A stretch of DNA of 35,849 nt from a virus (IMGVR_UViG_3300011584_000017:1-35849), one strand, 5' to 3'; numbered from the stretch's first letter, positions 1,104 to 35,849 are shown. Program-made: numbers and translations. The notes: generated from the sequence alone by a model not told the origin.

Positions 1104-1183
1104 GGTAATGGCGGCAAAATGGCGACAGACTTTTGCGTCCATCTTGCCTGTCGCCATCTTGAAATCATGCAAAGAGGTTTCAC

Positions 1184-1666
1184 ATGGAAGAACTTCACTT
1201 TGTTTACATCAATGCAAATGGTCGTATCGCTGTTCACTCTATACAGAGCATCAGTTATAGCGAAAATCATATACAGGGCATTTGTAAGAACACCGATCGA
1301 ATAAAAACCTTCCGAAAAGACTGCATTCTTAAACAGTACGATTCACCAGAACAAGCCATTCAGGAATGCGCGTCATTCCTCCCCGAAAGCTACTCACATC
1401 TCACTAAGCAGTCTGGTCCGAAAAAAAATACATTCGATGTATGTTTCACCGGATTTAAGAAAGCAGATAAAGAAAGATTGGTTGATAAGGCGAATGAACA
1501 AGGATTAACGGTAAGAACCTCTGTAACCCAAAGCCTTCAGATGCTCTGTTGCGGTTACAATGCAGGCCCATCAAAAGTATCGGCAGCCCGGATGAAAGGC
1601 ACAATCATCATAGATGAGCCTGGCTTTATACATTTTCTTGAAACGGGTGAGATCCCAGATGAATAA
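1184..1666 (+). CDS. Hypothetical protein with C-terminal BRCT-like domain (prophage cargo next to the attachment site)
   Basis: 160-aa ORF, AT-rich, RBS agagg 8 nt before ATG. The C-terminal ~75 aa (VCFTGF...GLTVRTSVTQSLQMLCCGYNAGPSKVSAARMKGTIIIDEPGFIHFL) follows the pattern of the BRCT domain of NAD-dependent DNA ligase; the N-terminal half is possibly WYL/SH3-like (weak). Confidence 0.6.
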   Translation: MEELHFVYINANGRIAVHSIQSISYSENHIQGICKNTDRIKTFRKDCILKQYDSPEQAIQECASFLPESYSHLTKQSGPKKNTFDVCFTGFKKADKERLVDKANEQGLTVRTSVTQSLQMLCCGYNAGPSKVSAARMKGTIIIDEPGFIHFLETGEIPDE

Positions 1667-1690
1667 AAACCTGCCGTAGCAGGTTCTCTT
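1661..1690. terminator. Hairpin terminator between the convergent BRCT-like ORF and ogr (strongest for the minus strand)
   Basis: Stem aacctgc-cgta-gcaggtt at 1668-1685; on the minus strand it is followed by TTTTATT. Confidence 0.5.
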
Positions 1691-1692
1691 TC

Positions 1693-1911
1693 TCAAAAAT
1701 TCATATGCCCCTGACCACCTGGCAATGGATGTGGAGGAGCAGTAGCAATCAGTGCGGGTGTCACAATAAACCGGACCACTGTTTCATGGGTAACAAAAGT
1801 GCTCCCGCAGTTAATATTTTGGCACTGGCAGTAACGCTCTTTGGTGCTTTCAGTTACTTGAAAACTGCTCCTTGTGTGTGCCGCATGACCACACTTTGGA
1901 CAATTCATCAT
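1693..1911 (-). CDS. ogr: Late-gene transcriptional activator Ogr (Cys4 zinc finger)
   Basis: 72-aa product from the internal ATG at 1911 (MMNCPKCGHAAH...CQCQNINC...HPLPGGQ); CxxC...CxxxxC zinc-finger pattern and overall similarity to P2 Ogr; located after D as in P2. Confidence 0.85.
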   Translation of the reverse strand: MMNCPKCGHAAHTRSSFQVTESTKERYCQCQNINCGSTFVTHETVVRFIVTPALIATAPPHPLPGGQGHMNF

Positions 1912-1979
1912 ATCCAGATCCCTACCTTTGCTATCAGAATCATTGTAATGATACACAAAATATCAATATTGAGAACACT

Positions 1980-3080
1980 TTATTCCATTTCAAGATCATC
2001 AATCTTCACTTCGAGTTCAATACTGGTTGTAAAACCGTTATCCGGGCTGACGGTATGTGTCAGAGTCGTAATGGTCCATTCCGCATCATCTATCGGCTGT
2101 TTAAAACCACTGACCTTCACAGGCATTTCCGTGTAGAGATCTGCCCGCCCTTCTGCCAGTTGTAGCGAGAATGACGCAACGCCACGTTGCAGGCGTTCCC
2201 ACTGCATTTTCGCCGCCCGTTCGGCGTTGCTCCGGTTGGCATAGGTGCGATTAAGTACCAGCACGTTTTCATCTGTACCCACCAGGTAATCGCCCTGCTT
2301 CGCTTCCGGCTCTTTCTTCTGCTTCTTAGTCCTGCGCTTACGCTTCACCGTGGTGCTTTCTTTCTTCGCGGGTTCGCGGGTATGCAACCAGCTGGCAATT
2401 ACGCCCGTGTAGGCTCCGCGATCTGCCAGGGTAAAGCGGTGACTGTCGCCGTCCTTACGTGTGATAGTGATAACCGGTAGTGGTTTACCGCTGGCGCTTT
2501 TACCCTGTCCCTGCCGGATGAATAACAGATTGCCATTTTTCACCGACGCAATAGCACCGTACTGGCGCGCCAGCCGCATCAGAAAACTGCCGTCACTCTC
2601 ATTGGTCTGGTCTATATGCTCCACAGGTTTATCCGACAGGTCTTTACCCAGTGCCATCTTCAGTTTGTGCCGCACAGCTATTTCCTTCACCACTTCCCCA
2701 ACGGTGGTCTTGTGCCACGATTTTTCACGGCGGATATTCAGGGTTTCACGAAAATCAGCACTTCGCGCCCGGATAGTCAGGCGGTCCGGTGCGCCAGTGT
2801 GTTCAATCTCGTCCACCGTGAATGCTCCTTTCGGGAAAAGCGACTGCCCCTTCCAGCCCAACGCCAGCGTAATGACCGCACCACGGCGCGGCAGCACGAT
2901 TTTTCCGTCGGCGTCGTCCAGCTCCAGATCAAGCTGGTCCGCTTCAAAGCCCCGATTGTCCGTCAGCGTCAGACTCATCAGGCGGTTATCCAGCACAGTG
3001 GTGATATCCTTACCCTCAATACTGATGCTGAATGCCGGAGTTTTGTTGCCTTTGTTAAGCAGTTCAGAGCTGAAATTCAC
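1980..3080 (-). CDS. D: Tail protein D (late gene D product)
   Basis: 366-aa ORF in the P2 gpD position after U; GTG start overlapping the U stop (GTGA). Confidence 0.85.
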   Translation of the reverse strand: MNFSSELLNKGNKTPAFSISIEGKDITTVLDNRLMSLTLTDNRGFEADQLDLELDDADGKIVLPRRGAVITLALGWKGQSLFPKGAFTVDEIEHTGAPDRLTIRARSADFRETLNIRREKSWHKTTVGEVVKEIAVRHKLKMALGKDLSDKPVEHIDQTNESDGSFLMRLARQYGAIASVKNGNLLFIRQGQGKSASGKPLPVITITRKDGDSHRFTLADRGAYTGVIASWLHTREPAKKESTTVKRKRRTKKQKKEPEAKQGDYLVGTDENVLVLNRTYANRSNAERAAKMQWERLQRGVASFSLQLAEGRADLYTEMPVKVSGFKQPIDDAEWTITTLTHTVSPDNGFTTSIELEVKIDDLEME

Positions 3081-7644: not shown

Positions 7645-8817
7645 TTACGCGCTGACCTGGCTGGAGAAATTCACCAGGTACTGATCGGTGATGCGCTGAC
7701 GCAGCATCAGGTTTTCAAGTGGCGGCACTGGCGTGTAGTCGTAGTCGATGGTGAGTTTTCCGGCTTTCAGCGTGTCTTTGTCGTTCACCGACTCATCCAG
7801 CCAGCAATCACCACCAATGAGATAGCCCTGACTGACCAGGCTGCGCATTTTGGCGCGGATACCCTCGATAATGTCGCGGGCCAGCGACGGATTCAGCGGT
7901 TTATCCACCGCCCACATGTGCGCTTCTGCCATCGTGTCCGTCAGCACCTGCGCCGTGCGGGTGTAGTTTTCGAAGGCAAAGAGCGGGTCATCACTCAGGC
8001 AGCGGGAACCCCAGAAGCGGAAACCGTCTTTACGCACAAGCGTGGTGACGTCGTTCTGGTTCAGCAGACCTGCATCGGTTGCCGGGTCCTGCAGATCCCA
8101 GAACACATCTGCAGAAATTCCGGTGACACCGTTCACGCCCACGTTGGACAGGCTTTTGTGCCATCCGGTCTGCTCGTCAATTTTGGCGCGCAGACCAAGC
8201 GCACGGGCGGTGGCATATGCCGTTGCTTCGGCATTCAGCACCGTGTCCCAGCCAGTAAAGTCAGGCCAGATCAGCATCCCTTCGCGCTGGCTGAAGTTTT
8301 CGCGGTAAGTGATCGCCTCCTGCACTGTCTTGCAGCCATACGCTGACAGGTAAGCAAATCCACGCAGGCTTTGCGCCACGCTCAGCAACTCAGTAGCTAC
8401 CGCCTTGGTGTCGTGGCCTGGCACGCCGAGAATGCGCGGTTTAACGCCGAGCTGTGACTGGGCAGATAACAGGGCTTTCATACCTGTTTTTTTACCTTCA
8501 GCAGTCACTGCGCCGATGATATTGGTCGTGGTTTCGTCTTCCGTTTCACCCTGCGGCACACGCACAACAATGGTCACGGGTTTTGCCTGGTCAGCGATGG
8601 CATCCAGCGAACGGGCCAGAGTACCTGACTCACCCGCTTTACCGCTGGCAGTCAGCACATCAGTGATCAGCACGGGTTTATTAAGAGGAAACATTTTTGC
8701 ATCGGCATCATCGCCCGTGCAGACCATACCCACGATGGCGGTGCTCACCGTGGTAATAGATCGGGTGCCTTCGTTGACTTCAACAACGCGCACCCCGTGG
8801 TGGTAATCCTGAGCCAT
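7645..8817 (-). CDS. FI: Contractile tail sheath protein FI
   Basis: 390-aa ORF, size and position of P2 gpFI; first gene of the F operon. Confidence 0.9.
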
Positions 8818-8893
8818 AGTGGCGAACCTCCTGATTGGATTAGGCTTCGCCCTATGTTGAAGTGATTGTGCCTGACAAACAGCTAAGCGCAGT

Positions 8894-8911
8894 TGTGTCG
8901 TTATTCACACA
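8894..8911 (-). promoter_or_regulatory. Candidate Ogr-dependent late promoter element (TGT-N12-ACA) upstream of FI
   Basis: tgt-gtcgttattcac-aca, centred about 85 bp upstream of the FI start codon; matches the P2 late-promoter activator site consensus. Confidence 0.45.
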
Positions 8912-8959
8912 AAATAACGGTATTTGTCTGCTTGTAGGGATAATCAACATAATGCTGAT

Positions 8960-9526
8960 TCAGGGGGATTCATTGATCTTATTTGCCGGAAATTTTCTAT
9001 AAATGGTAGAAACGCCTACATCAAAAATCAGTGCAATACGCTGTATTGATTCTCCGGCCTCGAGTAAACGCCCAATCTGTGCCCACTGTTCGGTGGTCAA
9101 CTTAGGACGGCGTCCACCTACTCTGCCTTTGGCACGAGCTGCAGCCAGCCCTGCCCTGGTACGTTCAACTATCAGTTCGCGTTCCATTTCAGCCAGGGCA
9201 CCCATGACATGAAAAAAGAAACGGCCCATTGGGGTACTGGTATCAATACTGTCAGTCAGGCTTCTGAAATTCACACCACGCTGGCGCAACTCTTCTATCA
9301 GCGTAACAAGATGCCGCATACTGCGCCCCAACCTGTCCAGCTTCCAGACAACCAGCGTGTCTCCTGCCGATAGTGTCCTGAGTAGTTTTTTCAGCCCCGG
9401 TCTGTCGGACTTAGTGCCACTGATTTTGTCCTCAAAAATCCGCTCACATCCCGCGCAGTTCAGTGCATTACGTTGCAAATCGGTGTTCTGGTCATTTGTT
9501 GACACGCGTACATAGCCAATAAGCAT
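8960..9526 (-). CDS. Site-specific DNA invertase, serine recombinase (Gin/Pin/Cin/Hin family)
   Basis: MLIGYVRVSTNDQNTDLQRNAL...VVWKLDRLGRSM...FFFHVMGALAEMERELI...: near-identical in pattern to Mu Gin; the ORF track start at 9532 adds MI before the likely Gin-like start. Confidence 0.92.
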   Translation of the reverse strand: MLIGYVRVSTNDQNTDLQRNALNCAGCERIFEDKISGTKSDRPGLKKLLRTLSAGDTLVVWKLDRLGRSMRHLVTLIEELRQRGVNFRSLTDSIDTSTPMGRFFFHVMGALAEMERELIVERTRAGLAAARAKGRVGGRRPKLTTEQWAQIGRLLEAGESIQRIALIFDVGVSTIYRKFPANKINESP

Positions 9527-9532
9527 GATCAT

Positions 9533-9608
9533 CCCCCTGAATAAAAACCGGAGATGATGCCAGTTAGCTGTTACCTCTGCATTTTCTTAAACGTTGGTTT
9601 GGGAGAAG
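9533..9608. repeat. Left inverted repeat of the invertible segment (contains the 15-bp core ttggtttgggagaag)
   Basis: Perfect 76-bp reverse-complement match to 11490-11565. Confidence 0.85.
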
Positions 9609-10093
9609 GCTCTGCATTACCTGTTGGTGTCCCTGTTCCGTGGCCTTCAGCCACTCCGCCAACAGGCTGGCTGAAATGCAATGGTGCAGCTTTTTCTGCT
9701 GAAGAATACCCGGAACTGGCAAAAGTTTACCCGACAAATAAATTGCCTGATTTACGTGGTGAGTTTATTCGTGGCTGGGATGACGGGCGGGGGATTGATA
9801 CAGGTCGCTCTATTTTAAGTATTCAGGGATATGCAACGGAGGATCATGCTCATGGATTACCGTCAAGATCCACGATTGTGACTGATGCAACTATTAATTT
9901 CTATTTTGATGAAAGCTGGGTAAATAGTGGCACTGACATTATCAAAAGAGGAAACACAAACGATGCTGGATTACCAGCACCGGATTATGGAACCTTTAAA
10001 ACATATAAACAATCAGTGGCTGGTTTAGGTGCCGCAGCCTCAGAAACGCGTCCGCGTAATATTGCATTTAACTATATCGTGAGGGCAGCCTGA
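9554..10093 (+). CDS. Alternative (silent in this orientation) tail-fibre C-terminal variable segment Sv'
   Basis: ORF shares GLGEGSALPVGVPVPWPSA with the end of the H constant region, then diverges; tail-fibre-like C-terminus; lacks the H constant part in this orientation. Confidence 0.7.
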   Translation: MMPVSCYLCIFLNVGLGEGSALPVGVPVPWPSATPPTGWLKCNGAAFSAEEYPELAKVYPTNKLPDLRGEFIRGWDDGRGIDTGRSILSIQGYATEDHAHGLPSRSTIVTDATINFYFDESWVNSGTDIIKRGNTNDAGLPAPDYGTFKTYKQSVAGLGAAASETRPRNIAFNYIVRAA

Positions 10094-10695
10094 TGCATAA
10101 AGCAATATTAAATAGTGAGCTCATTGCAACAAAGGCAGGGGATGTTACCGTTTATAACTATGATGGTGAAACACGGGAATATATTTCCACTTCAAATGAA
10201 TATCTTGCCGTTGGTGTCGGCATTCCGGCATGTTCCTGTTTAGATGCCCCTGGCACACATAAGGCTGGTTATGCAATCTGCCGTTCTGCAGATTTTAACT
10301 CATGGGAATATGTGCCAGACCATCGCGGTGAAACGGTCTATAGCACCGAAACAGGAGAATCAAAAGAAATCACCGCTCCGGGTGATTACCCTGAAAATAC
10401 AACCACTATCGCCCCATTAACGCCATATGATAAATGGGATGGTGAGAAATGGGTGACGGATACCGAGGCACAGCATAGCGCCGCAGTAGATGCAGCAGAA
10501 GCACAGCGCCAGTCGCTGATTGATACTGCAATGGCTTCCATCAGTCTGATTCAACTGAAATTGCAGGCCGGACGTAAACTGACGCAGGCAGAAACAACCC
10601 GGCTTAACGCTGTGCTGGATTACATTGACGCGGTGACGGCAACAGATACCAGCACCGCGCCGGATGTCATCTGGCCTGAACTGCCGGAGGCGTAG
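10093..10695 (+). CDS. Tail fibre assembly protein (U'-like, partner of Sv')
   Basis: 200-aa ORF with the typical Tfa C-terminus (...LDYIDAVTATDTSTAPDVIWPELPEA). Confidence 0.8.
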   Translation: MHKAILNSELIATKAGDVTVYNYDGETREYISTSNEYLAVGVGIPACSCLDAPGTHKAGYAICRSADFNSWEYVPDHRGETVYSTETGESKEITAPGDYPENTTTIAPLTPYDKWDGEKWVTDTEAQHSAAVDAAEAQRQSLIDTAMASISLIQLKLQAGRKLTQAETTRLNAVLDYIDAVTATDTSTAPDVIWPELPEA

Positions 10696-11119
10696 GCCAT
10701 TCAATATCTGGTGCACTGGAGGTATCAACCAGCTCCAGTGCATCCAGATAATCCAGCCACAAATTATATTGCGCCAGTTCCTCACCTTTCAGACGACCAA
10801 TAGCGGCTTTACCGGGCCATTGCTTACTGTTCATGTATTCGTTGGCCTGGTTAATTAGTAGCTGTCTTTCTGATTCAGTAATTTCAATAAGCTCTTCATG
10901 CGTGGGTGGAGGAGTATCTGCCCACGCAGGCAGCCCATCATCTCCGGCAATACGGATTTTTCCTTGTGGCGGTTCAGCCATAAACTCACTGATAATATTT
11001 TGATTTACTTCCTTAGCGTCTGATAAATCCCATCCCTCTGATTTATATTTATCAATCATATCCACAGGGAAAAAAGCATTATGCCTTGCGCTATAAACAT
11101 ATTCGTTCATATAAATCAC
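10667..11119 (-). CDS. Tail fibre assembly protein (U-like, partner of the expressed Sv)
   Basis: 150-aa ORF with Tfa-like C-terminus (...LDYLDALELVDTSSAPDIEWPTPP); convergent with its paralogue. Confidence 0.8.
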   Translation of the reverse strand: MIYMNEYVYSARHNAFFPVDMIDKYKSEGWDLSDAKEVNQNIISEFMAEPPQGKIRIAGDDGLPAWADTPPPTHEELIEITESERQLLINQANEYMNSKQWPGKAAIGRLKGEELAQYNLWLDYLDALELVDTSSAPDIEWPTPPAVQAR

Positions 11120-11130
11120 CCTGAATAAAA

Positions 11131-11544
11131 TTACTCACCAACAGCCCACCAACTGTAATTCATCGATACCGTGTCGCTGGTTGATGACGTTCTGTAAGCA
11201 GAATTAAAGCCGGTTAACGTTGGGCCTTCTGCAGTCATCACGAACCCTCGCCCAGCGCCTAAAGGCGCACCGCCATCACCAGAATGAGTAAGCATGGCGC
11301 AGTCCGCTTTTTTGGGGAAAGGGATGCTGAATGTAATTCTCATTGTTTGCGTCGATAATGTCGGCGTAACCGCACCACGACCATATTGCAGGATTTTCCC
11401 GTTGGGTAATTTCATCCATCCATCACCACTGGCAAAAGAGGCCATGTCCGGTATCTGATTTTCCCCTGTCCCCACATCCCGTTTTGCCGCTTCTCCCAAA
11501 CCAACGTTTAAGAAAATGCAGAGGTAACAGCTAACTGGCATCAT
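11131..11544 (-). CDS. Tail-fibre C-terminal variable segment Sv (the one joined to H in the assembled orientation)
   Basis: Variable region begins right after the 15-bp core (GLGE-AAKRDVGTGENQ...); the N-terminal MMPVSCYLCIFLNV of the ORF call is repeat-derived and probably not translated as such. Confidence 0.7.
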   Translation of the reverse strand: MMPVSCYLCIFLNVGLGEAAKRDVGTGENQIPDMASFASGDGWMKLPNGKILQYGRGAVTPTLSTQTMRITFSIPFPKKADCAMLTHSGDGGAPLGAGRGFVMTAEGPTLTGFNSAYRTSSTSDTVSMNYSWWAVGE

Positions 11545-11565
11545 CTCCGGTTTTTATTCAGGGGG
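11490..11565. repeat. Right inverted repeat of the invertible segment
   Basis: Perfect reverse complement of 9533-9608; abuts the N gap. Confidence 0.85.
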
Positions 11566-12683
11566 NNNNNNNNNNTGGCTGAAGGCCACGGAACAGGGAC
11601 ACCAACAGGTAATGCAGAGCCTTCTCCCAAACCAAGGTATGTGAGAAGACCAGCTACATCCTTTCCACTCAAATTGGTAAGCGTATTGTCCAGCGGTTGT
11701 TTACCTGCCAGCGCATTAAGCATTGTCGTGGCAAAGTTCGGATCATTCCCCAGTGCCGCCGCCAGTTCGTTCAGTGTATCCAGTGCAGCAGGTGCAGAAC
11801 CCACCATTCCTGCAATCGCCGATTTCACAAAAGCCGTAGTGGCAATCTGTGTATTGTTGACCGACTGCGCCGCCGTGGGGGCTGTTGGCGTTCCGGTGAG
11901 TGCCGGACTCGACAACGGTGCTTTTAGTGCCAGCGCATTGTTAATGGTGGTACTGAAATTCGGATCATTGTTAATGGCTGCGGCTATTTCTTTCAGCGTG
12001 TCCAGCGTGGCTGGCGCACCATTAATAAGGGCCGTCAGTGCCGCCTGTACAAACGCAGTGGTCGCAACCTGCGTGGTATTATTCCCCGCCGCTGGCGTTG
12101 GCGCTTTGGGGGTTCCGGTAAATGTCGGGCTGGCTTTTGGCGCGTACTGTGAATGCGGGTCCGGTGCGGCAAGATGTTTTGCCATCTGATCATCCGCGTA
12201 CACCTTCAGCTCCAGTGCCTTGTCATCCACATACTTGCGGGTTGCCAGCACTACAGCAGGGTCGATTTTCAGGGTGATATTGTCCGTGCTGCTGGTAATC
12301 AGCACCATGCGCACGGTCTGAGTGCGCCCGCTACCTTCAGCCAGTTGCGGCTTATAGCTTTCCGGGCAGTTGCCCACGGCAATCAATGCCCCGGACTCAT
12401 CAAACAAGCCCACTTCACGTATCCACCAACCGCCCTCGTTTTCAGGGATCACCTGTTCGGCAATAATCTGGCTGCTGTTCTGCGGGTCGATATAAAGCAT
12501 ATTCAGCGCAGCCCGGCGTTTCTCATTTACCAGTGCCGTCTGCTTTGCGTCCGGCGTTGGCAATACTCCACCGCCATCGCCCACCGCCATATGGGTAATT
12601 TTTAGCGGCACACCGAGCGCGGCGGCGCTGGCAAGTTTCGCCGCGCCAATATCCGTCAGCAGGGTATAAAATTTTGTGCTCAT
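11541..12683 (-). CDS. H: Tail fibre protein H (constant N-terminal part; C-terminus interrupted by the gap)
   Basis: 380-aa ORF with Ala/Thr-rich repeats (TAFV..A, NDPNF motifs) typical of P2 gpH; its 3' end runs into the inverted repeat and the N gap. Confidence 0.8.
   Translation of the reverse strand: MSTKFYTLLTDIGAAKLASAAALGVPLKITHMAVGDGGGVLPTPDAKQTALVNEKRRAALNMLYIDPQNSSQIIAEQVIPENEGGWWIREVGLFDESGALIAVGNCPESYKPQLAEGSGRTQTVRMVLITSSTDNITLKIDPAVVLATRKYVDDKALELKVYADDQMAKHLAAPDPHSQYAPKASPTFTGTPKAPTPAAGNNTTQVATTAFVQAALTALINGAPATLDTLKEIAAAINNDPNFSTTINNALALKAPLSSPALTGTPTAPTAAQSVNNTQIATTAFVKSAIAGMVGSAPAALDTLNELAAALGNDPNFATTMLNALAGKQPLDNTLTNLSGKDVAGLLTYLGLGEGSALPVGVPVPWPSAXXXXPLNKNRR
11566..11575. 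other. Assembly gap (10 N) inside the inversion crossover region
   Basis: Run of N; flanking sequence is a mosaic of both segment orientations. Confidence 0.95.
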
Positions 12684-13285
12684 GGATTCACTCTCATTGT
12701 GTCAATAACATGGACCGCCCCGCCTTCATGCGCGGTGCCACCGGAAATAATCGTTTCGTTGATATACGGATAGATCGTGATTTCTTCGCCAAGATAGCTG
12801 GCGGCTCCCACCCAATGCGGGCCGCTGGTCTGCAGATTGATGGACATGCCGATCATGTGGCGGCTACATGGTTTGGCATCGCTTATCAGTCGCTCAAGTT
12901 CCAGATAGGTATCTTCAGTGATGCCCTGGTCCTGCACGCCGATATCCAGGCGAAACGTGCCCGGTGTTTCTCCGGTCTGCCACCACTCAATAATGCGGAT
13001 CAGGAATCCGAACGGCTCCACCACCCGCCGCACGGCACTGGTGGTCCCTTTATGCTGATGAATATAAAAAGCATCCTTCACCACCTGGCGCTTGACGCTT
13101 TCTGTCCAGCCCTCGTCCCAGCGATCCACAGAGAACGCCCAGGCGAGATAAGGCAGGAAACTGACCGGACAGGTTGCCGGATTCCACAAGTCACGAAGCG
13201 GCACCTGCAGATCAGAAATCCCGCTGCAGGTTTGCGCCAGTCGGCGCTCCAGTGGTGTTGAACCCGGTGGCAGCAGACTATTCAT
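12680..13285 (-). CDS. I: Baseplate assembly protein I
   Basis: 201-aa ORF (MNSLLPPGSTPLERRLAQ...) in the P2 gpI position. Confidence 0.85.
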   Translation of the reverse strand: MNSLLPPGSTPLERRLAQTCSGISDLQVPLRDLWNPATCPVSFLPYLAWAFSVDRWDEGWTESVKRQVVKDAFYIHQHKGTTSAVRRVVEPFGFLIRIIEWWQTGETPGTFRLDIGVQDQGITEDTYLELERLISDAKPCSRHMIGMSINLQTSGPHWVGAASYLGEEITIYPYINETIISGGTAHEGGAVHVIDTMRVNP

Positions 13286-14186
13286 CCGTTCCTCCGTTGG
13301 TTACGCTCCACTGCGTACATGATGCCGCCTGTGTTTTGTTCAGGACCACATCCGCCAGAGGAGAAGCCAGCTCCACACGCTGCACCCCCTCAACATGCAG
13401 GGCGGCAAAGATGGCGCTACGGCGAATATCCCGACCAAGACGCGTCTGACTGGCGATGTACTTCTGCAGGCTGGCTTTTGCCGCTGCCATTACCGGCTCT
13501 GCTTCCGGTCCAGGATAGAGAAAAATGGTGGCTTCCACGCGATACGGGATGATTTCTGCGCTGCGAACCGTAAGACGGTCAGCCACCGGGCGGACGTTCT
13601 CACTGTTCAGAGCTTTTTCCACCACGTCCAGCAGGTCTTTTTCTGCAGTTCCATCGCCTTCGCGGCTAAGGACAGTCAGCACCACCTCTGCAGGTGCCGG
13701 GCTGGTTGCACTGGCATCCGCCACCCGACCGTCGGCGCTTCGGGCATGAAATTCATAAGCTGCAGTTGGCCCCGCAACAGAAAGCCCTTCAAAGGCTGCA
13801 GGCACACGCAGGCGCAACGCTTCATCGCTTTCCATCACAGCTGCAACGGGCGGCACAGCATCATTATCAGCAGGCGTCACCGTCAGGCGTGTCACGTTGT
13901 AGTTGGCAGCGAGCTGGTCAAGATCGCCGCCCATCGCGTAAGCCACCATCACCGCCTGCGCGGCTTCGTTAATGCGCTGGCGCAGAAGCAACTCACGGTA
14001 AGCGTTCTCCTGCAACAATTTAGTGGCGGGTTCAGATTCCAGTTCCAGCGTGCGGATCACTGCTTCCTGCTCATCTTTCGGATGAAGCGCCACAAATTCT
14101 GCCTTGCGTTCGGCAAGCAGCGTCTCAAAGTCCGGCACATCCACAATCTGCGGTGCAGGCAACTGCGAAAGGTCAATCACTGCCAT
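13278..14186 (-). CDS. J: Baseplate assembly protein J
   Basis: Start moved to the internal ATG at 14186 (MAVIDLSQLPAPQIV...), giving 302 aa like P2 gpJ and a short overlap with W. Confidence 0.85.
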   Translation of the reverse strand: MAVIDLSQLPAPQIVDVPDFETLLAERKAEFVALHPKDEQEAVIRTLELESEPATKLLQENAYRELLLRQRINEAAQAVMVAYAMGGDLDQLAANYNVTRLTVTPADNDAVPPVAAVMESDEALRLRVPAAFEGLSVAGPTAAYEFHARSADGRVADASATSPAPAEVVLTVLSREGDGTAEKDLLDVVEKALNSENVRPVADRLTVRSAEIIPYRVEATIFLYPGPEAEPVMAAAKASLQKYIASQTRLGRDIRRSAIFAALHVEGVQRVELASPLADVVLNKTQAASCTQWSVTNGGTDE

Positions 14187-22892: not shown

Positions 22893-23917
22893 TGGGAAAG
22901 AGTAAGAAGAACCGCGCTGCGTCGACGAACCAGATCCAGCATAAAAGTCAAACTACAGCCGAAGCATTCAGCTTCGGTGATCCCGTTCCTGTTCTGGACC
23001 GCCGCGAACTACTGGACTATGTGGAATGCGTACAGACAGATCGCTGGTATGACCCGCCAGTGAGTTTTGACGGACTGGCGCGTACCTTTCGCGCCGCCGT
23101 GCACCACAGCTCACCGATTGCAGTGAAATGCAACATTCTGACCAGCACCTACATCCCTCACCCGCTGCTCAGCCAGCAGGCTTTTTCACGTTTTGTGCAG
23201 GACTATCTGGTTTTTGGTAACGCCTACCTGGAGAAACGCACGAACCGGTTCGGTGAAGTTATCGCCCTTGAGCCTGCTCTGGCAAAATACACCCGACGCG
23301 GATTAGACCTGGATACCTACTGGTTTGTGCAATACGGCATGACTACGCAGCCGTATCAGTTCACAAAAGGCAGCATTTTTCATCTGATGGAACCGGACAT
23401 CAACCAGGAGATCTACGGCCTGCCCGGTTATCTTTCTGCCATTCCGTCAGCCCTGCTCAACGAGTCCGCCACGCTGTTCCGCCGTAAGTATTACATTAAC
23501 GGCAGCCATGCAGGCTTCATCATGTACATGACCGATGCCGCGCAGAACCAGGAGGACGTGAACAACCTCCGCAATGCGATGAAAAGCGCCAAAGGTCCTG
23601 GCAACTTCCGCAACCTGTTTATGTACTCGCCTAACGGCAAAAAGGACGGGCTTCAGATTATCCCGTTGTCAGAGGTCGCAGCGAAGGATGAGTTTTTGAA
23701 TATCAAGAACGTGAGCCGGGATGACATGATGGCGGCGCATCGTGTGCCGCCGCAAATGATGGGGATTATGCCTAATAATGTTGGGGGGTTTGGGGATGTA
23801 GAGAAAGCCAGTTGCGTTTTTGTTCGTAACGAATTGATGCCGCTACAGAAACGGCTACAGGAACTAAATAGATGGTTGAAAGATGAAATTATCCGTTTTG
23901 CGACATACTCATTATGA
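22889..23917 (+). CDS. Q: Portal protein Q
   Basis: 342-aa ORF, size and position of P2 gpQ; followed by a terminator hairpin and the cos-proximal region. Confidence 0.9.
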   Translation: MMGKSKKNRAASTNQIQHKSQTTAEAFSFGDPVPVLDRRELLDYVECVQTDRWYDPPVSFDGLARTFRAAVHHSSPIAVKCNILTSTYIPHPLLSQQAFSRFVQDYLVFGNAYLEKRTNRFGEVIALEPALAKYTRRGLDLDTYWFVQYGMTTQPYQFTKGSIFHLMEPDINQEIYGLPGYLSAIPSALLNESATLFRRKYYINGSHAGFIMYMTDAAQNQEDVNNLRNAMKSAKGPGNFRNLFMYSPNGKKDGLQIIPLSEVAAKDEFLNIKNVSRDDMMAAHRVPPQMMGIMPNNVGGFGDVEKASCVFVRNELMPLQKRLQELNRWLKDEIIRFATYSL

Positions 23918-23950
23918 CGACAATATGTTCGCTGAACAGTAAAATATCAA

Positions 23951-23976
23951 GAAGGCCTCTTACAAGGCCTTCTTTT
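23951..23976. terminator. Bidirectional hairpin terminator between the convergent Q and AIPR-like genes
   Basis: gaaggcct-cttaca-aggccttc followed by TTTT on the plus strand; it lies 2 nt before the stop of the minus-strand gene. Confidence 0.6.
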
Positions 23977-23978
23977 AG

Positions 23979-25721
23979 TTAGAATGCGGATTTGATTTTT
24001 TTCTCAAATGCCTCATATACAGGCTGGTTCATTTGGGCCGTTGCAGTAATAAGCTGTGAAAAATTTGATATACAATCTTTAACTTTTGTAGGACTTTTCA
24101 ACCCTCCTTCAACCAGTGCAGGCAGCAACTGATTACTTAAAGCCAGACACACATCTACAATTGGCTCCCAAATACTTTCAGCCTGAGAAGGAGAGACCGC
24201 ACTTCCAAACGAAACTCTAAATAAATTAGGAACGGGACGGCCCAAAAAGTTTTCCAAACATTCGGCAATAGCCGAGCACAATAAAGGTATTGAACCACGA
24301 TGCCTGAGATATCCCAATTGAGCGCCATCATTTTTTGAAAGAGTATCTTTCTTTGCCAAAGCTATTTTCTTGTTCTCAATACACCGCATGAGAGAATACG
24401 CACAAACAATATGTGAAGCTTTTGTACTGTCATTAAAAATCTTAGAATAATGAGAGTCATTAGTCCAAATTGCAGATCGCTGATTATAAGCTACCGTCGG
24501 CTCTCCATGGAAACTCATCAAAGCTTGACCAACAGTATAAGAAGGCAGTAGATTAGTTTTTCGACGAATGACACTTTCAGCACCTCCTCGTCTTCCTCCA
24601 TCATATTCAGCATCAGGAATAGAAGCAAATTCATTTTTAAGTCGTTTTTGAATTTTGTCTGTGCTTCTGAAATCAGATGCTTCAACTTTATTCTGACTGT
24701 TATTATACTGAATTATATTCTGAATTAGATCAGCATCCGCATCTTTGACTTTTATAAATCTAGCTTGGACTTTAACTGATTCTGGAGGTAATCGTGGCAG
24801 CGTTCCTAAAGCACCTGTTGTCTGTGCTCCATTAACTATTGACATCCCTCTGATTTTAAGATTCTTTGATGCTTCATTGAATTTATATTCATGAACCAAA
24901 ACAGTTACGCCATTATTGTATGCCCAAAATTCTGATGCTGAATTTTCCGCACTGTTACGGATACCATTATTGATATTTGAATCAGATGACCTTGATCCAA
25001 GGTAGTCTCTAACATTTGCTGAAAATATTTTTAATTTATGCTTTTTGTACGCTCTAGCTAAATCTCTTCCCTGAATGGTAGTACAGAATGCATTCCAATT
25101 ATCTCCTTTTATTTCGTAGCCACCATCACTGACTTTAATATTAAAAATATCATCAACCAGTATTGGTGATAGTGATTCACTATACCATTCCGTCAACTTT
25201 TCAGTGCCTACTTCCATTGCATGCACTTGTATTTTAGCATCTTCAAAATCATGTTTTAAAATAGTTGTTGCTGTCTGCTGAACCGTAATTAGCTCTTGAG
25301 CCACATTTGTTGAAGATGGTAAGTTATGAACATACCAAACGTACAGAGTTTTAATTTTCCCTTGTTTGATTGATGTCCGTATCTGTTGAGCAGAAGATTT
25401 TATTCTATCGGGTACATCATGCAAATCTCTTTGCAGAAGCCATGCTAAAGCAATATTAAGATCACTCGCTTTATTTGCTGGAGCTTCCTGTCTATCTTTG
25501 CTTGAGAAATAGCATTGAGCAAGTACAGCAAATTCTTCTTCTTCATTAATATACACAAGGTCACATTTCTTATCGTTATGTCCATCGGTAATGGACTCTG
25601 CTGCGACACTATCAATGTCATCAATTCTAAAATGTAATGCTAACGCAAACAAAGCCAGTCCATTATCACCATACGATTTCAAATCTTCTCTTGCAGAATA
25701 GGCTTGGTTCCAGGTACTCAT
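23979..25721 (-). CDS. AIPR-like protein (candidate abortive-infection / anti-phage defence protein); prophage cargo
   Basis: 580 aa from ATG 25721, which has a strong RBS (AAGGAG 5 nt upstream); visibly AT-rich relative to the phage core; no Walker A; motifs TDGHNDKKCDLVYIN and IVNGAQTTG that I associate from memory with the AIPR family; sits between Q and cos. Confidence 0.6.
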   Translation of the reverse strand: MSTWNQAYSAREDLKSYGDNGLALFALALHFRIDDIDSVAAESITDGHNDKKCDLVYINEEEEFAVLAQCYFSSKDRQEAPANKASDLNIALAWLLQRDLHDVPDRIKSSAQQIRTSIKQGKIKTLYVWYVHNLPSSTNVAQELITVQQTATTILKHDFEDAKIQVHAMEVGTEKLTEWYSESLSPILVDDIFNIKVSDGGYEIKGDNWNAFCTTIQGRDLARAYKKHKLKIFSANVRDYLGSRSSDSNINNGIRNSAENSASEFWAYNNGVTVLVHEYKFNEASKNLKIRGMSIVNGAQTTGALGTLPRLPPESVKVQARFIKVKDADADLIQNIIQYNNSQNKVEASDFRSTDKIQKRLKNEFASIPDAEYDGGRRGGAESVIRRKTNLLPSYTVGQALMSFHGEPTVAYNQRSAIWTNDSHYSKIFNDSTKASHIVCAYSLMRCIENKKIALAKKDTLSKNDGAQLGYLRHRGSIPLLCSAIAECLENFLGRPVPNLFRVSFGSAVSPSQAESIWEPIVDVCLALSNQLLPALVEGGLKSPTKVKDCISNFSQLITATAQMNQPVYEAFEKKIKSAF

Positions 25722-25804
25722 TATCACTCCTTAGTAATAAAGTTTTAGCGAAGGTTATCTCTAAGAAGGTACATTTTCAATTCCATTTATCCCTCCAGCG
25801 CGCG

Positions 25805-25823
25805 CTCGTATCCCCGCCACGCC
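25805..25823 (-). other. Putative cos site (cohesive-end sequence)
   Basis: Minus strand reads GGCGTGGCGGGGATACGAG followed by CGCGCGCTGGAGGG, closely resembling the remembered P2/186 cohesive ends (GGCG[A/T]GGCGGGGAAAGCA...). Confidence 0.45.
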
Positions 25824-25867
25824 TGCCCGCTTTATGTAGTGGTTTTCATGCACCTGCATGATCTACG

Positions 25868-25892
25868 CAAAAGCCCGCCAGAACTGGCGGGC
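25868..25892 (-). terminator. Rho-independent terminator downstream of the lipoprotein gene
   Basis: gcccgccag-aa-ctggcgggc hairpin followed by UUUU on the minus strand. Confidence 0.5.
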
Positions 25893-25996
25893 CTTAACAC
25901 AAAAGATCCTCAAACGATCATGCGATCTCATGCAGCATAGACATGCGCGCTTATGCAGAATGTGCAAAATCGTAACATACTCAGTAAGCGTGAAAC

Positions 25997-26674
25997 CTAG
26001 AACGTGACAGCCTTGTCAAAGCCAGAAATAATTGTATAAGAAATAGACGAGTTATCAGCCTTGTTCACTTTGAACTTGGCACCTTTGTAAGCGATAACGT
26101 CACTTCCCTTAGAATCTACAGAAAAATCTGTTGTAAATGCTGCACGAGCCATATCGTTTGCAAATTCACGATAGGTGAACTTCATTACACCGCCTGCATT
26201 TCCATTGTATTCGATAGTCTTAACCAATGAGTTACTAACTCGACACAGCCCATCAGGAACACGTTTGATAGAAATTTCTGATGCAGTATAAGAAGTACCA
26301 TTTGGCGGTGATATCTCATTTTTTGCAGCATCGTAACTAACATAATCAACATAGTTACCGATTTGCCCATAGAGATTTTTTAACGCAACAGCTTGAGGGT
26401 TATGATAATTGCGGTAAATTCCATTCCCCTCACTGCAATATGTACCAGCAGCGATAGAAGACAATGCACCATTAGCCGCACCAAGTTCTAGTACGTCCGT
26501 TTTAAATCCAGTAGCAGATGTGATAATGGGATCGCCCATGTAGGCGGTAGCACTTTGCCCAATAGCAGGCTTCACCACTTCAATAGCAGTGATATTTCGG
26601 TTAGAAGCATGTGGCACGCAACCAGTTAGGATTACAGCAAGAGATATTGGTAACGCTACATTATTAATTTTCAT
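25997..26674 (-). CDS. Putative lipoprotein (candidate superinfection-exclusion / surface protein); prophage cargo
   Basis: 225 aa from ATG 26674; signal peptide with lipobox MKINNVALPISLAVILTGC; Gly/Ser/Thr/Tyr/Asn-rich mature part ending in a C-terminal Phe; AT-rich; flanked by its own terminators. Confidence 0.7.
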   Translation of the reverse strand: MKINNVALPISLAVILTGCVPHASNRNITAIEVVKPAIGQSATAYMGDPIITSATGFKTDVLELGAANGALSSIAAGTYCSEGNGIYRNYHNPQAVALKNLYGQIGNYVDYVSYDAAKNEISPPNGTSYTASEISIKRVPDGLCRVSNSLVKTIEYNGNAGGVMKFTYREFANDMARAAFTTDFSVDSKGSDVIAYKGAKFKVNKADNSSISYTIISGFDKAVTF

Positions 26675-26695
26675 TTTTAGCCTATTATTCTTTTC

Positions 26696-26733
26696 TTGAC
26701 AAAAAACAAGGCGATATCTGATTGACATCGCCT
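26696..26733 (-). terminator. Terminator of the SOS-regulated tum/DinI-like operon
   Basis: Hairpin aggcgat...atcgcct followed by a U-run (UGUUUUUUG) on the minus strand. Confidence 0.45.
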
Positions 26734-26787
26734 CTCACTCATATGTAACCCTTTTTGATTAGTAAAAACAAGCGTCTATTGACAAAA

Positions 26788-27021
26788 TCAATGCAGCCAG
26801 CTGTCGTCTTCCCACACCTTCTGCATAATTTTCATCACTTGTTTTCTTTCTTCGTCCAGTTGCAGTCCGGTCAGTTCCACACCGTTAGAGCTACCTTTAC
26901 GGATACGGATTACCGTTTTGGGATACAGGGGGCGCAGATTGCGGTAAAGCTCGGATTCAAGGGCGTCCAGGGTAGACTGGCTAATCTTCTGCTCTTTATC
27001 GATCATTATTTCAATGCGCAT
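26788..27021 (-). CDS. DinI-family protein (Tum C-terminal-domain-like, SOS-induced)
   Basis: 77 aa from ATG 27021 (MRIEIMIDKEQKISQSTLDALESELYRNL...VWEDDSWLH), clear DinI-like sequence; RBS GAGGTG 6 nt upstream; the longer track ORF from 27093 is an artefactual extension. Confidence 0.8.
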   Translation of the reverse strand: MRIEIMIDKEQKISQSTLDALESELYRNLRPLYPKTVIRIRKGSSNGVELTGLQLDEERKQVMKIMQKVWEDDSWLH

Positions 27022-34790: not shown

Positions 34791-35849
34791 ATGAAAATTA
34801 AACTAACATCAATCATTGCCTATACCATTATATCTATTATTATTGCACTAGGTTTAGTGTATACCAATAGACCAAGAATCTTTGTTTTATTTAGCATATT
34901 TCATATCCTTGGTGTGGTTGTTATATTCTATTATTTCAACTGGTTAAAACTTAATGAGAAAAACCTATTAAAGCAGCCATTATTTATAGCTTCAATTATC
35001 ATACCGTTAGAAATGTTTATTTTGTATGGCCTTTGGGCATGGAAAGGTCACAGTTTAGATTTTACGTCAGAAGGCTTTAATCAATTCTTAGATATCTCTA
35101 AATTACCATTGTTAATTTTAGCTTCTTCTGTTCCTCTTGCATCAATAGTAAATAATATACACAGAACAACTCAGACAGAGAATCAGATTGAAAAAACACA
35201 AAAACAAATCAATCTTGTAATTGAAAAGAATAAAACTGATTCTTATTACTCACATCTAAAAAGTTACGCGGATATTTTTAAAACACTACCGGCTTTTAAA
35301 ATATCAAGATTAAACAAAAATGATGGAAGCACGGAATACATTGAATTATCTGTCGTTCATCCTTACACTCTCTACAAAAATATATTCAAATCATCTTCAA
35401 TCGATAATGGATATAGCACCACGGTCGAAGATGGCTTCATAAAAAAAACAAAACACCTTTATAACAAAATAAACAAAAGCCTTACATCAAAAAATACTAC
35501 TCATGATATCCAATTATCTAATCTGCAACTAATAGAATCACACATAATTGAACTATGCCGATTACTTGGGATTGACTATAAATACCAAGAACATCTATTT
35601 CTAATAATTTTTGAGAATCCCAAACATAATATAGAATCAATAACTATCTCATATAGTGATGAAAAACAACTTAAGCAAATGCTTTGGGGGCTAAGAAACA
35701 TTCTCATTGAACTATATATTTTAATTGACGAAGACCCCAATATTTTTCTAGCAAGCAAAAATACTGGTAACGTCATCCCTGATTATGCCCTATATTTTGA
35801 AAATCTGTTTACACACATTCTCCCTATCTCAAATAAAATGCGTATGTGA
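34791..35849 (+). CDS. Hypothetical membrane protein (about 4 N-terminal TM helices plus Lys/Asn/Ile-rich soluble domain); candidate prophage-expressed exclusion/defence factor
   Basis: 352-aa ORF starting 4 nt after the int stop, ending with TGA at the last window base; extremely AT-rich compared with the phage core; weak RBS. Confidence 0.6.
   Translation: MKIKLTSIIAYTIISIIIALGLVYTNRPRIFVLFSIFHILGVVVIFYYFNWLKLNEKNLLKQPLFIASIIIPLEMFILYGLWAWKGHSLDFTSEGFNQFLDISKLPLLILASSVPLASIVNNIHRTTQTENQIEKTQKQINLVIEKNKTDSYYSHLKSYADIFKTLPAFKISRLNKNDGSTEYIELSVVHPYTLYKNIFKSSSIDNGYSTTVEDGFIKKTKHLYNKINKSLTSKNTTHDIQLSNLQLIESHIIELCRLLGIDYKYQEHLFLIIFENPKHNIESITISYSDEKQLKQMLWGLRNILIELYILIDEDPNIFLASKNTGNVIPDYALYFENLFTHILPISNKMRM

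What the first reader, a model, noticed from the sequence alone, without database searches (positions are those of the whole stretch)
11490..11635. Assembly gap at the inversion crossover with chimeric flanks, evidence that both orientations were sampled
The 10-N gap is flanked on one side by invertase-proximal sequence joined to the core and Sv, and on the other by the H constant region joined to the core and the start of Sv'. Both junctions belong to the opposite orientation from the one assembled at the left end (9533-9653, invertase-core-Sv'). The core ttggtttgggagaag therefore appears twice on the right side. This is what a scaffolder produces when the population is mixed. It means the annotated H C-terminus here is unreliable.
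Basis: seen in the sequence. Interest (0 to 1): 0.55.

Follow-up and report, generated by a model that had tools for sequence, protein, structure and literature searches.

The report
Scaffold gap at phage tail-fibre switch
The 10-N gap and its odd flanks are an assembly artefact made where a well-known flip-flop DNA switch in a P2-like prophage of E. coli changes the tip of the tail fibre; the switch is real and ordinary, but the duplicated 131 bases are not part of the genome.

Summary
The only N run is 11566-11575. Its left flank (11490-11565) is an exact reverse complement of 9533-9608 (invertase-proximal DNA plus the 15-nt core). Its right flank (11576-11635) is an exact reverse complement of 9594-9653 (core plus the start of Sv').

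Closed E. coli chromosomes 99% identical to the window join Sv to the H constant region through a single core. They lack these 131 nt. Each flank is collinear, up to the base touching the gap, with a closed genome that has the segment flipped.

The locus is a Pin/Gin-type invertible tail-fibre segment (9609-11489) in a P2-like prophage at ssrA:
- The invertase is 86% identical to e14 PinE and 74% to Mu Gin.
- The core is identical to the one in the e14 crossover sites.
- Two alternative H C-termini, each with its own chaperone, fuse in frame to the constant part (473 or 515 aa).

The window contains three of the four possible junctions, so reads of both orientations must have been present. A mixed culture is the most likely source. 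A second prophage copy in the opposite orientation is the main rival.

As assembled, the H C-terminus is chimeric. The system is already known and of low interest.

The parts
8960..9532 (-). Serine DNA invertase gene (Pin/Gin family). The likely true start is the third codon, at 9526 (MLIGYVRVSTNDQ...).
   Evidence: Pfam Resolvase 2.9e-53 and HTH_7 6.4e-16. Mu Gin structures 3UJ3 and 4M6F at 1.5e-91, with the catalytic-serine motif GYVRVSTNDQ conserved. 86% identical to e14 PinE and 74% to Mu Gin.
9533..9593 (+). Invertase-proximal spacer (I), 61 nt, outside the invertible segment. It includes the outer half-site TTTTCTTAAACG at 9582-9593.
   Evidence: Read directly. It is duplicated in reverse complement at 11505-11565.
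9582..9607 (+). Left 26-bp crossover site: TTTTCTTAAACG / TT / GGTTTGGGAGAA. The central dinucleotide is at 9594-9595.
   Evidence: Aligned by eye to the Mu gix site TTATCCAAAACC/TC/GGTTTACAGGAA and to the e14 pin-side site TTTTCATAAACG/TT/GGTTTGGGAGAA.
9609..10093 (+). Sv' cassette, an alternative H C-terminus with a Collar domain. It is silent in the assembled orientation. Fused to Hc it gives a 515-aa H.
   Evidence: In-frame fusion and translation. Pfam Collar 1.4e-14. The 515-aa H is annotated in the closed orientation-2 genome L003.
10093..10695 (+). U' tail-fibre assembly chaperone, the partner of Sv' (TfaE-like).
   Evidence: Pfam Caudo_TAP 3.5e-33. Annotated tfaE in L001. Window 9078-10771 is 92% identical at DNA level to e14 pinE-stfE-tfaE.
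10667..11110 (-). U tail-fibre assembly chaperone, the partner of Sv.
   Evidence: Pfam Caudo_TAP 6e-31. Annotated in L001.
11131..11489 (-). Sv cassette, an alternative H C-terminus with a gp53-like C-terminal domain. Fused to Hc it gives a 473-aa H. This is the expressed form in the scaffold's overall orientation.
   Evidence: In-frame fusion. Pfam Gp53-like_C 2.2e-11. An identical 473-aa open frame is present in closed genome L001.
11490..11504 (-). Core copy at the Sv end of the segment (inner half-site plus the central AA). This is the genuine right-hand core; in the real genome it is followed directly by Hc (11636 onward).
   Evidence: L001 alignment.
11505..11565 (-). ARTEFACT: overhang at the end of contig 1, a reverse-complement copy of the invertase-proximal 61 nt (9533-9593). 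With Sv and the core it forms the orientation-2 junction Sv-core-I'.
   Evidence: 100% inverted repeat. Absent from L001. Collinear with orientation-2 genome L003 up to 11565. This junction is found in 843 complete E. coli genomes. Its natural continuation is the invertase ATG.
11566..11575 (.). 10-N scaffold gap that joins two contig ends. It does not stand for 10 real bases.
   Evidence: The natural continuations of the two flanks (ATGATCATGC... from the left...GTTGGCGGAG into the right) are incompatible with each other.
11576..11620 (-). ARTEFACT: overhang at the start of contig 2, a reverse-complement copy of the first 45 nt of Sv' (9609-9653). With the core and Hc it forms the orientation-2 junction Sv'-core-Hc.
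   Evidence: Exact match. Collinear with L003 from 11576 onward. This junction is found in 357 complete genomes.
11610..11635 (-). Right 26-bp crossover site as assembled; on the minus strand it reads TTCTCACATACC / TT / GGTTTGGGAGAA. The core copy 11621-11635 is redundant with 11490-11504.
11636..12683 (-). H constant region (Hc): the N-terminal roughly 350 aa of the P2-type tail fibre, outside the invertible segment.
   Evidence: Pfam Phage_tail_fib 4.6e-65. 99.9% identical to L001.

Best explanation
The locus is a Pin/Gin-type (Din family) site-specific inversion switch in the tail-fibre operon of a P2-like prophage integrated at ssrA.

A 188-190-aa serine invertase (8960-9532, minus strand) acts on two 26-bp crossover sites in inverted orientation. 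Each site has a 12-bp outer half-site, a central TT/AA and the shared inner half-site GGTTTGGGAGAA. Inversion flips the 1.9-kb segment between them (9609-11489).

The segment holds two alternative tail-fibre C-terminal cassettes, each followed by its own chaperone gene, arranged tail to tail. Whichever cassette faces the constant part of gene H (11636-12683) is fused to it in frame. The result is a 473-aa H (Hc-Sv, plus U) or a 515-aa H (Hc-Sv', plus U'), and presumably a different host range.

The DNA that was sequenced contained both orientations, so a short-read assembly graph had four junctions around a 15-nt shared core. One contig ran invertase-core-Sv'...Sv-core and then 61 nt back into the invertase-proximal sequence. 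The next contig began 45 nt inside Sv', then core, then Hc. A scaffolder joined the two with a placeholder of 10 N.

The scaffold as a whole is in orientation 1. Positions 11505-11635 (131 nt: two orientation-2 overhangs, the gap and one core) are not in the genome.

Shown: the anatomy, the identity of each flank, the absence of the 131 nt from closed genomes, and the in-frame fusions. Inferred: the way the assembler produced the gap, the origin of the two orientations in one mixed culture, the dependence on Fis and an enhancer, and the host-range effect.
For: Duplicated flanks: exact 76-nt and 60-nt inverted duplications abut the only N run. The core occurs 3 times against 0.10 expected by chance.

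Orientation 1: closed genome NZ_CM142775 (99.2% identical) aligns to 8000-11504 and 11621-13500, and the two alignments overlap by the 15-nt core. The window is therefore 131 nt longer.

Orientation 2: closed genome NZ_CM129872 aligns to 10154-11565 and 11576-13500, that is, exactly up to both gap edges. It encodes the predicted 515-aa H.

Junction counts: all four junction types occur full-length in complete E. coli genomes in balanced numbers.
- I-core-Sv': 863 genomes.
- I-core-Sv: 843 genomes.
- Sv-core-Hc: 355 genomes.
- Sv'-core-Hc: 357 genomes.

Left flank: six metagenome contigs with the exact 80-nt left flank all continue into the invertase gene.

Fusions and domains: both fusions are in frame. 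The domains found are Resolvase+HTH_7, Phage_tail_fib, Collar, Gp53-like_C and two Caudo_TAP.

Relation to known systems: the invertase matches Gin structures at 1.5e-91 and is 86% identical to PinE. The e14 crossover sites contain the identical 15-nt core. The Mu gix site has the same 12/2/12 layout.

Inversion in vivo: in the closed chromosome of strain 503440, two copies of the same prophage have 100% identical flanks and a 1836-nt segment inverted exactly at the core.

Published precedent: paired-end sequencing and PCR showed that clonal E. coli cultures hold both orientations of the e14 segment at about 1:1, and of P2-like prophage segments as well (PMC4272514).
Against: No reads are available, so the mixture is inferred from the assembly alone.

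The two overhangs have different lengths (76 and 60 nt including the core). A plain k-mer break would give equal lengths, so the exact assembler behaviour is not explained.

The source contig, and hence the assembler, could not be found.

The search for Fis sites in the 5' part of the invertase gene was inconclusive.
Confidence: 0.85

Rival explanations
1. The artefact is the same, but the two orientations come from two copies of the prophage (or of its tail-fibre switch) in one clonal genome, fixed in or caught in opposite orientations and collapsed by the short-read assembler. There is no mixed population.
For: The closed chromosome of E. coli 503440 has exactly this: tandem copies with 100% identical flanks and the segment inverted. 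Many complete genomes hold more than one place matching the junction queries (2628 places in 1939 genomes, up to 6 per genome).
Against: The window is contiguous from the host gene smpB and ssrA through 11.5 kb on one side of the gap and 24 kb on the other, with only this one gap. A second, non-identical copy should break the contigs at every point of divergence, and an identical tandem copy should break them at the prophage ends. Mixed orientations in clonal cultures are the documented norm for this family (PMC4272514).
Confidence: 0.1
2. The assembled order is real. The locus has three crossover sites, as in multiple-inversion systems (the three-repeat P2-like prophage of EPEC, Min of p15B, shufflons), or it carries a genuine 131-bp duplication left by an aberrant recombination event.
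For: Three exact copies of the core are present. A P2-like prophage with three inverted repeats and four coexisting variants has been described (PMC4272514).
Against: In real three-site systems the extra site is followed by a further C-terminal cassette. Here the DNA between sites 2 and 3 consists only of truncated copies of the sequences flanking site 1, cut off at an N run. None of the close relatives in closed genomes or metagenome contigs has this arrangement. The two flanks cannot be bridged by their natural continuations within 10 nt.
Confidence: 0.03
3. The N run is deliberate masking, or a low-coverage consensus call, of 10 real bases in an otherwise correct sequence.
For: Some collections mask short stretches as N. 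The run is short.
Against: Masking would leave collinear sequence on both sides. Here the two sides are reverse-complement copies of overlapping sequence at 9533-9653 and are absent from 99%-identical closed genomes.
Confidence: 0.02

Closest known systems
Invertible P segment and PinE invertase of the cryptic prophage e14 (E. coli K-12)
   Same: The invertase is 86% identical. The 15-nt core TTGGTTTGGGAGAAG is identical in both crossover sites. The invertase-side outer half-site differs by one base (TTTTCATAAACG against TTTTCTTAAACG). Window 9078-10771 (invertase, Sv', U') is 92% identical at DNA level to pinE-stfE-tfaE. The cassette and chaperone layout is the same.
   Different: The host element is an intact-looking P2-like prophage at ssrA rather than the lambdoid remnant e14. 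The constant region is a P2 H-type tail fibre (Phage_tail_fib), and the second cassette is gp53-like rather than StfP/TfaP.
G segment and Gin invertase of phage Mu (and the C segment and Cin of P1, from general knowledge)
   Same: The invertase is 74% identical to Gin and lies next to the segment. The crossover site has the 12/2/12 layout. A constant S/H N-terminus is fused to one of two C-termini, each with its own chaperone, which switches host range.
   Different: The central dinucleotide is TT/AA here and TC/GA in gix. Identity between the two sites is only 15 nt here against 34 nt in Mu. The segment is 1.9 kb against 3 kb. The phage backbone is P2-like.
Phase-variable tail-fibre inversions in P2-like prophages of E. 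coli detected by whole-genome sequencing (Goldberg et al. 2014, PMC4272514)
   Same: The phenomenon is the same: both orientations coexist in clonal cultures and leave abnormal read pairs at the inverted repeats.
   Different: That work quantified the orientations from reads. Here only the footprint left in a scaffold is visible.

Membership tests
Din-family serine DNA invertase switch (Gin/Cin/Pin/Hin) | A recombinase of about 190 aa with an N-terminal resolvase catalytic domain (serine nucleophile in GYVRVSTxxQ) and a C-terminal HTH_7 DNA-binding domain | tested here: met
   Pfam Resolvase 2.9e-53 and HTH_7 6.4e-16. Alignment to Gin 3UJ3 keeps GYVRVSTNDQ and KLDRLGRS. 86% identical to PinE and 74% to Gin.
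Din-family serine DNA invertase switch (Gin/Cin/Pin/Hin) | Two 26-bp crossover sites in inverted orientation, each made of two imperfect 12-bp half-sites around an identical 2-bp centre | tested here: met
   The sites are TTTTCTTAAACG/TT/GGTTTGGGAGAA (9582-9607) and TTCTCACATACC/TT/GGTTTGGGAGAA (Hc side, minus strand).
Din-family serine DNA invertase switch (Gin/Cin/Pin/Hin) | The invertase gene lies directly next to the invertible segment, outside it | tested here: met
   The start codon at 9526-9532 is 61-67 nt from the central dinucleotide at 9594-9595.
Din-family serine DNA invertase switch (Gin/Cin/Pin/Hin) | The segment carries two opposed C-terminal tail-fibre cassettes with cognate chaperones, each fusing in frame to a constant N-terminal part outside the segment | tested here: met
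   Hc+Sv gives 473 aa and Hc+Sv' gives 515 aa, both open. Domains and two Caudo_TAP chaperones. Both forms are present as open frames in closed genomes.
Din-family serine DNA invertase switch (Gin/Cin/Pin/Hin) | A Fis-bound recombinational enhancer (two Fis sites about 48 bp apart) in cis, within the 5' part of the invertase gene | tested here: inconclusive
   The 5' 260 nt align well with gin and pin, but a loose Fis consensus scan gave only one candidate (position 131), against several in gin. The consensus is too degenerate to decide.
Din-family serine DNA invertase switch (Gin/Cin/Pin/Hin) | The segment really inverts: both orientations are observed with break points at the core | tested here: met
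   Three of the four junctions are in this window. Closed genomes exist in each orientation. The 503440 tandem copies are inverted exactly at the core. The four junctions occur about 1:1 across 5426 genomes. This evidence is comparative, not experimental.
Scaffolding artefact at an unresolved inversion | An N run lies between two contig ends, and each flank is collinear with an authentic junction up to the base next to the N run | tested here: met
Scaffolding artefact at an unresolved inversion | The extra sequence is absent from near-identical finished genomes | tested here: met
   131 nt are absent from NZ_CM142775. All 24 near-full-length complete-genome hits are split in 2-3 pieces.
Scaffolding artefact at an unresolved inversion | Reads support all four junctions, and no read spans the assembled double-core arrangement | not testable with these tools
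   No reads are available and the source record was not found.
Multiple-inversion system (three or more crossover sites: Min, shufflon, three-repeat P2-like prophage of EPEC) | Each additional crossover site is followed by a further distinct C-terminal cassette | tested here: not met
   Between the second and third core lie only 61 nt and 45 nt copies of the sequences flanking the first core, plus 10 N.

The most novel reading that the evidence does not exclude
The double-core arrangement is a real molecule: a rare aberrant product of the invertase (for example exchange between sister chromosomes followed by repair) that left a short inverted duplication of the invertase-side junction between Sv and Hc. 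That would be a direct footprint of off-pathway serine-recombinase chemistry in vivo.
Probability: 0.02. Interest if true: 0.4.

Novelty: already known. Interest (0 to 1): 0.1.

Why it matters
The value is practical rather than conceptual.

- The H (tail-fibre) gene model in this window is wrong as assembled. A gene caller gets a 380-aa ORF with X residues and a spurious 137-aa ORF starting inside the duplicated spacer.
- The correct sequence is obtained by deleting 11505-11635. That restores a 473-aa H. The alternative state gives a 515-aa H.
- Any host-range or receptor-binding prediction made from this record should use these two repaired proteins.
- Exact inverted copies of one junction abutting a short N run, at a 15-nt core beside a serine invertase, are a cheap read-free flag for active inversion switches in draft genomes.

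The biology itself (Pin/Gin-type tail-fibre switching, and coexisting orientations in clonal cultures) has been described for decades.

Tried and rejected
(1) Finding the source record, to learn the assembler and reach the reads. A pattern spanning the gap found nothing in viral contigs. The Sv-core-I' junction gave 7 viral loci, none with N runs or the right length. The exact 80-nt left flank found nothing in genome contigs. It gave 6 metagenome contigs, none of them the source.

(2) Inferring the k-mer size from the overhangs. The lengths 76 and 60 nt are unequal, so no conclusion is possible.

(3) Looking for the Fis enhancer with a loose consensus: inconclusive.

(4) Looking for an att duplication of the ssrA 3' end near the right end of the window. 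No exact repeat of 14 nt or more was found, so the right prophage boundary is probably beyond the window.

(5) Testing directly whether any complete genome has rc(I) next to rc(Sv'). I did not run this search. The tool joins pieces regardless of their order, so orientation-1 genomes would score as false positives. I relied on collinearity with individual closed genomes instead.

(6) Literature searches for the meaning of 10-N gaps in SPAdes scaffolds, and for assembly-graph signatures of invertible segments, gave nothing directly citable. My belief that 10 N is a minimal placeholder rests on memory only.

Full report
OBSERVATION. The window contains a single N run, 11566-11575.

The 76 nt that end at 11565 (11490-11565) are an exact reverse complement of 9533-9608. 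The 60 nt that begin at 11576 (11576-11635) are an exact reverse complement of 9594-9653.

The 15-nt core TTGGTTTGGGAGAAG occurs at 9594-9608 (+), 11490-11504 (-) and 11621-11635 (-). No other site appears at up to two mismatches. Chance would give 0.10 occurrences, and 0 of 100 shuffles reached three.

Read on the minus strand, the right side of the locus is therefore: Hc, core, first 45 nt of Sv', 10 N, 61 nt of invertase-proximal spacer, core, Sv.

WHAT THE LOCUS IS. The window is a P2-like prophage inserted next to smpB and ssrA.
- smpB is at 1-483 and the tmRNA at 698-1060.
- The window aligns at 96-99% identity over most of its length to a prophage at the same site in the E. coli GPEC1366 chromosome. 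That prophage carries the usual P2 gene set: ogr, D, tape measure, tube, sheath, H, I, J, W, V, lysis, capsid, terminase, portal, replication, CI and integrase.

Between the sheath gene and gene H lie the following.
- A 190-aa serine recombinase at 8960-9532 on the minus strand. It has Resolvase plus HTH_7 domains, matches the Mu Gin crystal structures at 1.5e-91 with the catalytic GYVRVSTNDQ motif intact, and is 86% identical to e14 PinE and 74% to Mu Gin.
- A 1.9-kb segment (9609-11489) bounded by the core in inverted orientation.
- Inside the segment, Sv' (Collar domain) and U' (Caudo_TAP) on the plus strand, and U (Caudo_TAP) and Sv (gp53-like C-terminal domain) on the minus strand.

Joined through the core, the constant part of H (11636-12683; Phage_tail_fib N-terminal domain) is in frame with both cassettes. 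Hc-Sv gives 473 aa and Hc-Sv' gives 515 aa.

THE CROSSOVER SITE. I fetched Mu and e14 and compared their sites directly.
- Mu gix is TTATCCAAAACC/TC/GGTTTACAGGAA.
- The window's sites are TTTTCTTAAACG/TT/GGTTTGGGAGAA on the invertase side and TTCTCACATACC/TT/GGTTTGGGAGAA on the Hc side.
- The e14 sites are TTTTCATAAACG/TT/GGTTTGGGAGAA and CTCGAAAACC/TT/GGTTTGGGAGAA.

It is identical to the e14 core. The locus is a Pin-type member of the Din invertase family, carried on a P2 backbone.

IS THE DOUBLE CORE REAL?
- No finished relative has it. The closed chromosome NZ_CM142775 (99.2% identity) aligns to window 8000-11504 and 11621-13500. The two alignments overlap by exactly the 15-nt core, so the window is 131 nt longer. 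In that genome Hc-core-Sv is a continuous 473-aa open frame.
- The closed chromosome NZ_CM129872 has the segment flipped. It aligns to window 10154-11565 and 11576-13500, that is, up to the bases touching the gap on both sides. It encodes the predicted 515-aa H.
- All six metagenome contigs with the exact 80-nt left flank continue with ATGATCATGCTTATTGG..., the invertase gene. None continues into Sv'.
- The sequences that would naturally continue the two flanks into the gap do not agree with each other, so the 10 N are not ten masked bases of a collinear genome.

The 131 nt at 11505-11635 therefore consist of two contig-end overhangs belonging to the flipped orientation, a placeholder gap, and a redundant core.

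WHY IT AROSE. The window holds three of the four possible junctions.
- Present: invertase-core-Sv' (orientation 1), and invertase-core-Sv and Sv'-core-Hc (both orientation 2).
- Missing: Sv-core-Hc (orientation 1).

Because the shared core is only 15 nt, any k-mer used by a modern assembler spans it. Each junction must therefore have been present in reads, and a single-orientation template cannot give both invertase-core-Sv' and invertase-core-Sv.

The most economical path through such a graph matches what is seen. One contig runs X-j1-segment-j2' and stops when it re-enters sequence already used. The second contig starts with j4. Read pairs from orientation-1 molecules link the Sv end to Hc with a non-positive distance, and the scaffolder writes a minimal gap. 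That last step is inference. My recollection that 10 N is the usual minimal placeholder is from memory only.

IS INVERSION ACTIVE? Independent evidence says it is.
- Across 5426 complete E. coli genomes the four junctions occur full-length in balanced numbers: 863 against 843 for the invertase side, and 355 against 357 for the Hc side.
- In the closed genome of strain 503440, two tandem copies of one P2-like prophage have 100% identical flanks and a 1836-nt segment inverted exactly at the core.
- Goldberg et al. (PMC4272514) showed by paired-end sequencing and PCR that clonal E. coli cultures contain both orientations of the e14 segment at about 1:1, and of P2-like prophage segments as well.

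RIVALS.
(a) Two copies in one genome in opposite orientations, collapsed by the assembler. This would give the same graph, and strain 503440 shows that such genomes exist. I give it about 0.1. The window is otherwise gap-free from host DNA through 35 kb, which a second diverged copy would normally fragment. Read depth would settle the question.

(b) A genuine three-site system or a real duplication, about 0.03. The DNA between cores 2 and 3 carries no new cassette, only truncated copies of the sequences flanking core 1, and no relative has this arrangement.

(c) Simple masking, about 0.02. It is excluded by the non-collinear flanks.

CONSEQUENCES.
- The assembled H ORF (11541-12683, 380 aa) ends ...GLGEGSALPVGVPVPWPSA-XXXX-PLNKNRR*, which is a chimera.
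- The 137-aa ORF 11131-11544 starts at an ATG inside the duplicated spacer.
- Deleting 11505-11635 restores orientation 1. Additionally reverse-complementing 9609-11489 gives orientation 2.

UNEXPLAINED. The overhangs are 76 and 60 nt, which is unequal for a plain k-mer break. The assembler is unknown because the source record was not found. The Fis-enhancer scan was inconclusive.

VERDICT. The underlying system is a textbook Pin/Gin-type tail-fibre switch, nearly identical to copies in hundreds of E. coli genomes. It is already known and of low interest. It is useful mainly as a correction to the gene model and as a read-free sign of an active inversion switch.

Noticed in passing
window 23868-26790 (ORFs 23979-25727 minus strand, 25997-26728 minus strand): This stretch does not align to the otherwise 96-99% identical GPEC1366 prophage. 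It encodes a 582-aa AIPR/AbiU-like protein (Pfam PF10592 1.8e-34; PADLOC AbiU 1.9e-34) and a 243-aa ORF with no family hit. It looks like an anti-phage cargo island in the P2 variable hotspot between the portal and replication genes.
   Followed up: partly
window 1133-1982 (ORF 1184-1666 plus strand): A second variable spot, between ssrA and ogr. It holds a 160-aa ORF with no Pfam hit and a weak PADLOC PDC-S48 hit (1.9e-7). GPEC1366 carries a reverse-transcriptase-domain gene at the same position.
   Followed up: partly
L001 5232-6653 and L002 3232-4653 (closed E. coli genomes, orientation 1): RefSeq/PGAP splits the intact 473-aa Hc-Sv open frame into a 'partial, missing C-terminus' pseudogene plus a separate 'gp53-like domain-containing protein', leaving about 620 nt unannotated. 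The orientation-2 form is annotated whole. The annotation of this gene therefore depends on orientation even in finished genomes.
   Followed up: yes
L021 (NZ_CP025881.1 2443000-2490000): E. coli 503440 has two tandem copies of the same P2-like prophage. Their flanks are 100% identical and the 1836-nt tail-fibre segment is inverted exactly at the 15-nt core. One copy also has an IS100 insertion in the replication gene. I did not check whether the tandem arrangement is real or a long-read assembly product.
   Followed up: partly
E. coli complete genomes: The four junction types of this switch occur in nearly equal numbers across 5426 finished genomes (863/843 on the invertase side, 355/357 on the Hc side). 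This is what unbiased flipping sampled at random by assemblers would give.
   Followed up: yes
L008 3149-4681 and L010 8177-9709 (IMG/VR contigs): Some related prophages have the same core at both ends of a shorter segment of about 1.5 kb, and both cassettes start with the Sv-type sequence CGGCAAAACGG... In these the switch alternates between two gp53-like C-termini.
   Followed up: no
window 1 and 35849: The window starts exactly at the smpB start codon and ends at the last base of a 352-aa ORF that is still open (34791-35849; no Pfam or PADLOC hit). This suggests a provirus region cut at gene boundaries from a draft scaffold. No repeat of the ssrA 3' end was found at the right end, so the right attachment site probably lies beyond the window.
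   Followed up: partly
window 11490-11565 against 11576-11635: The contig-end overhangs are unequal, 76 and 60 nt including the core. A simple de Bruijn contig break does not predict this.
   Followed up: no
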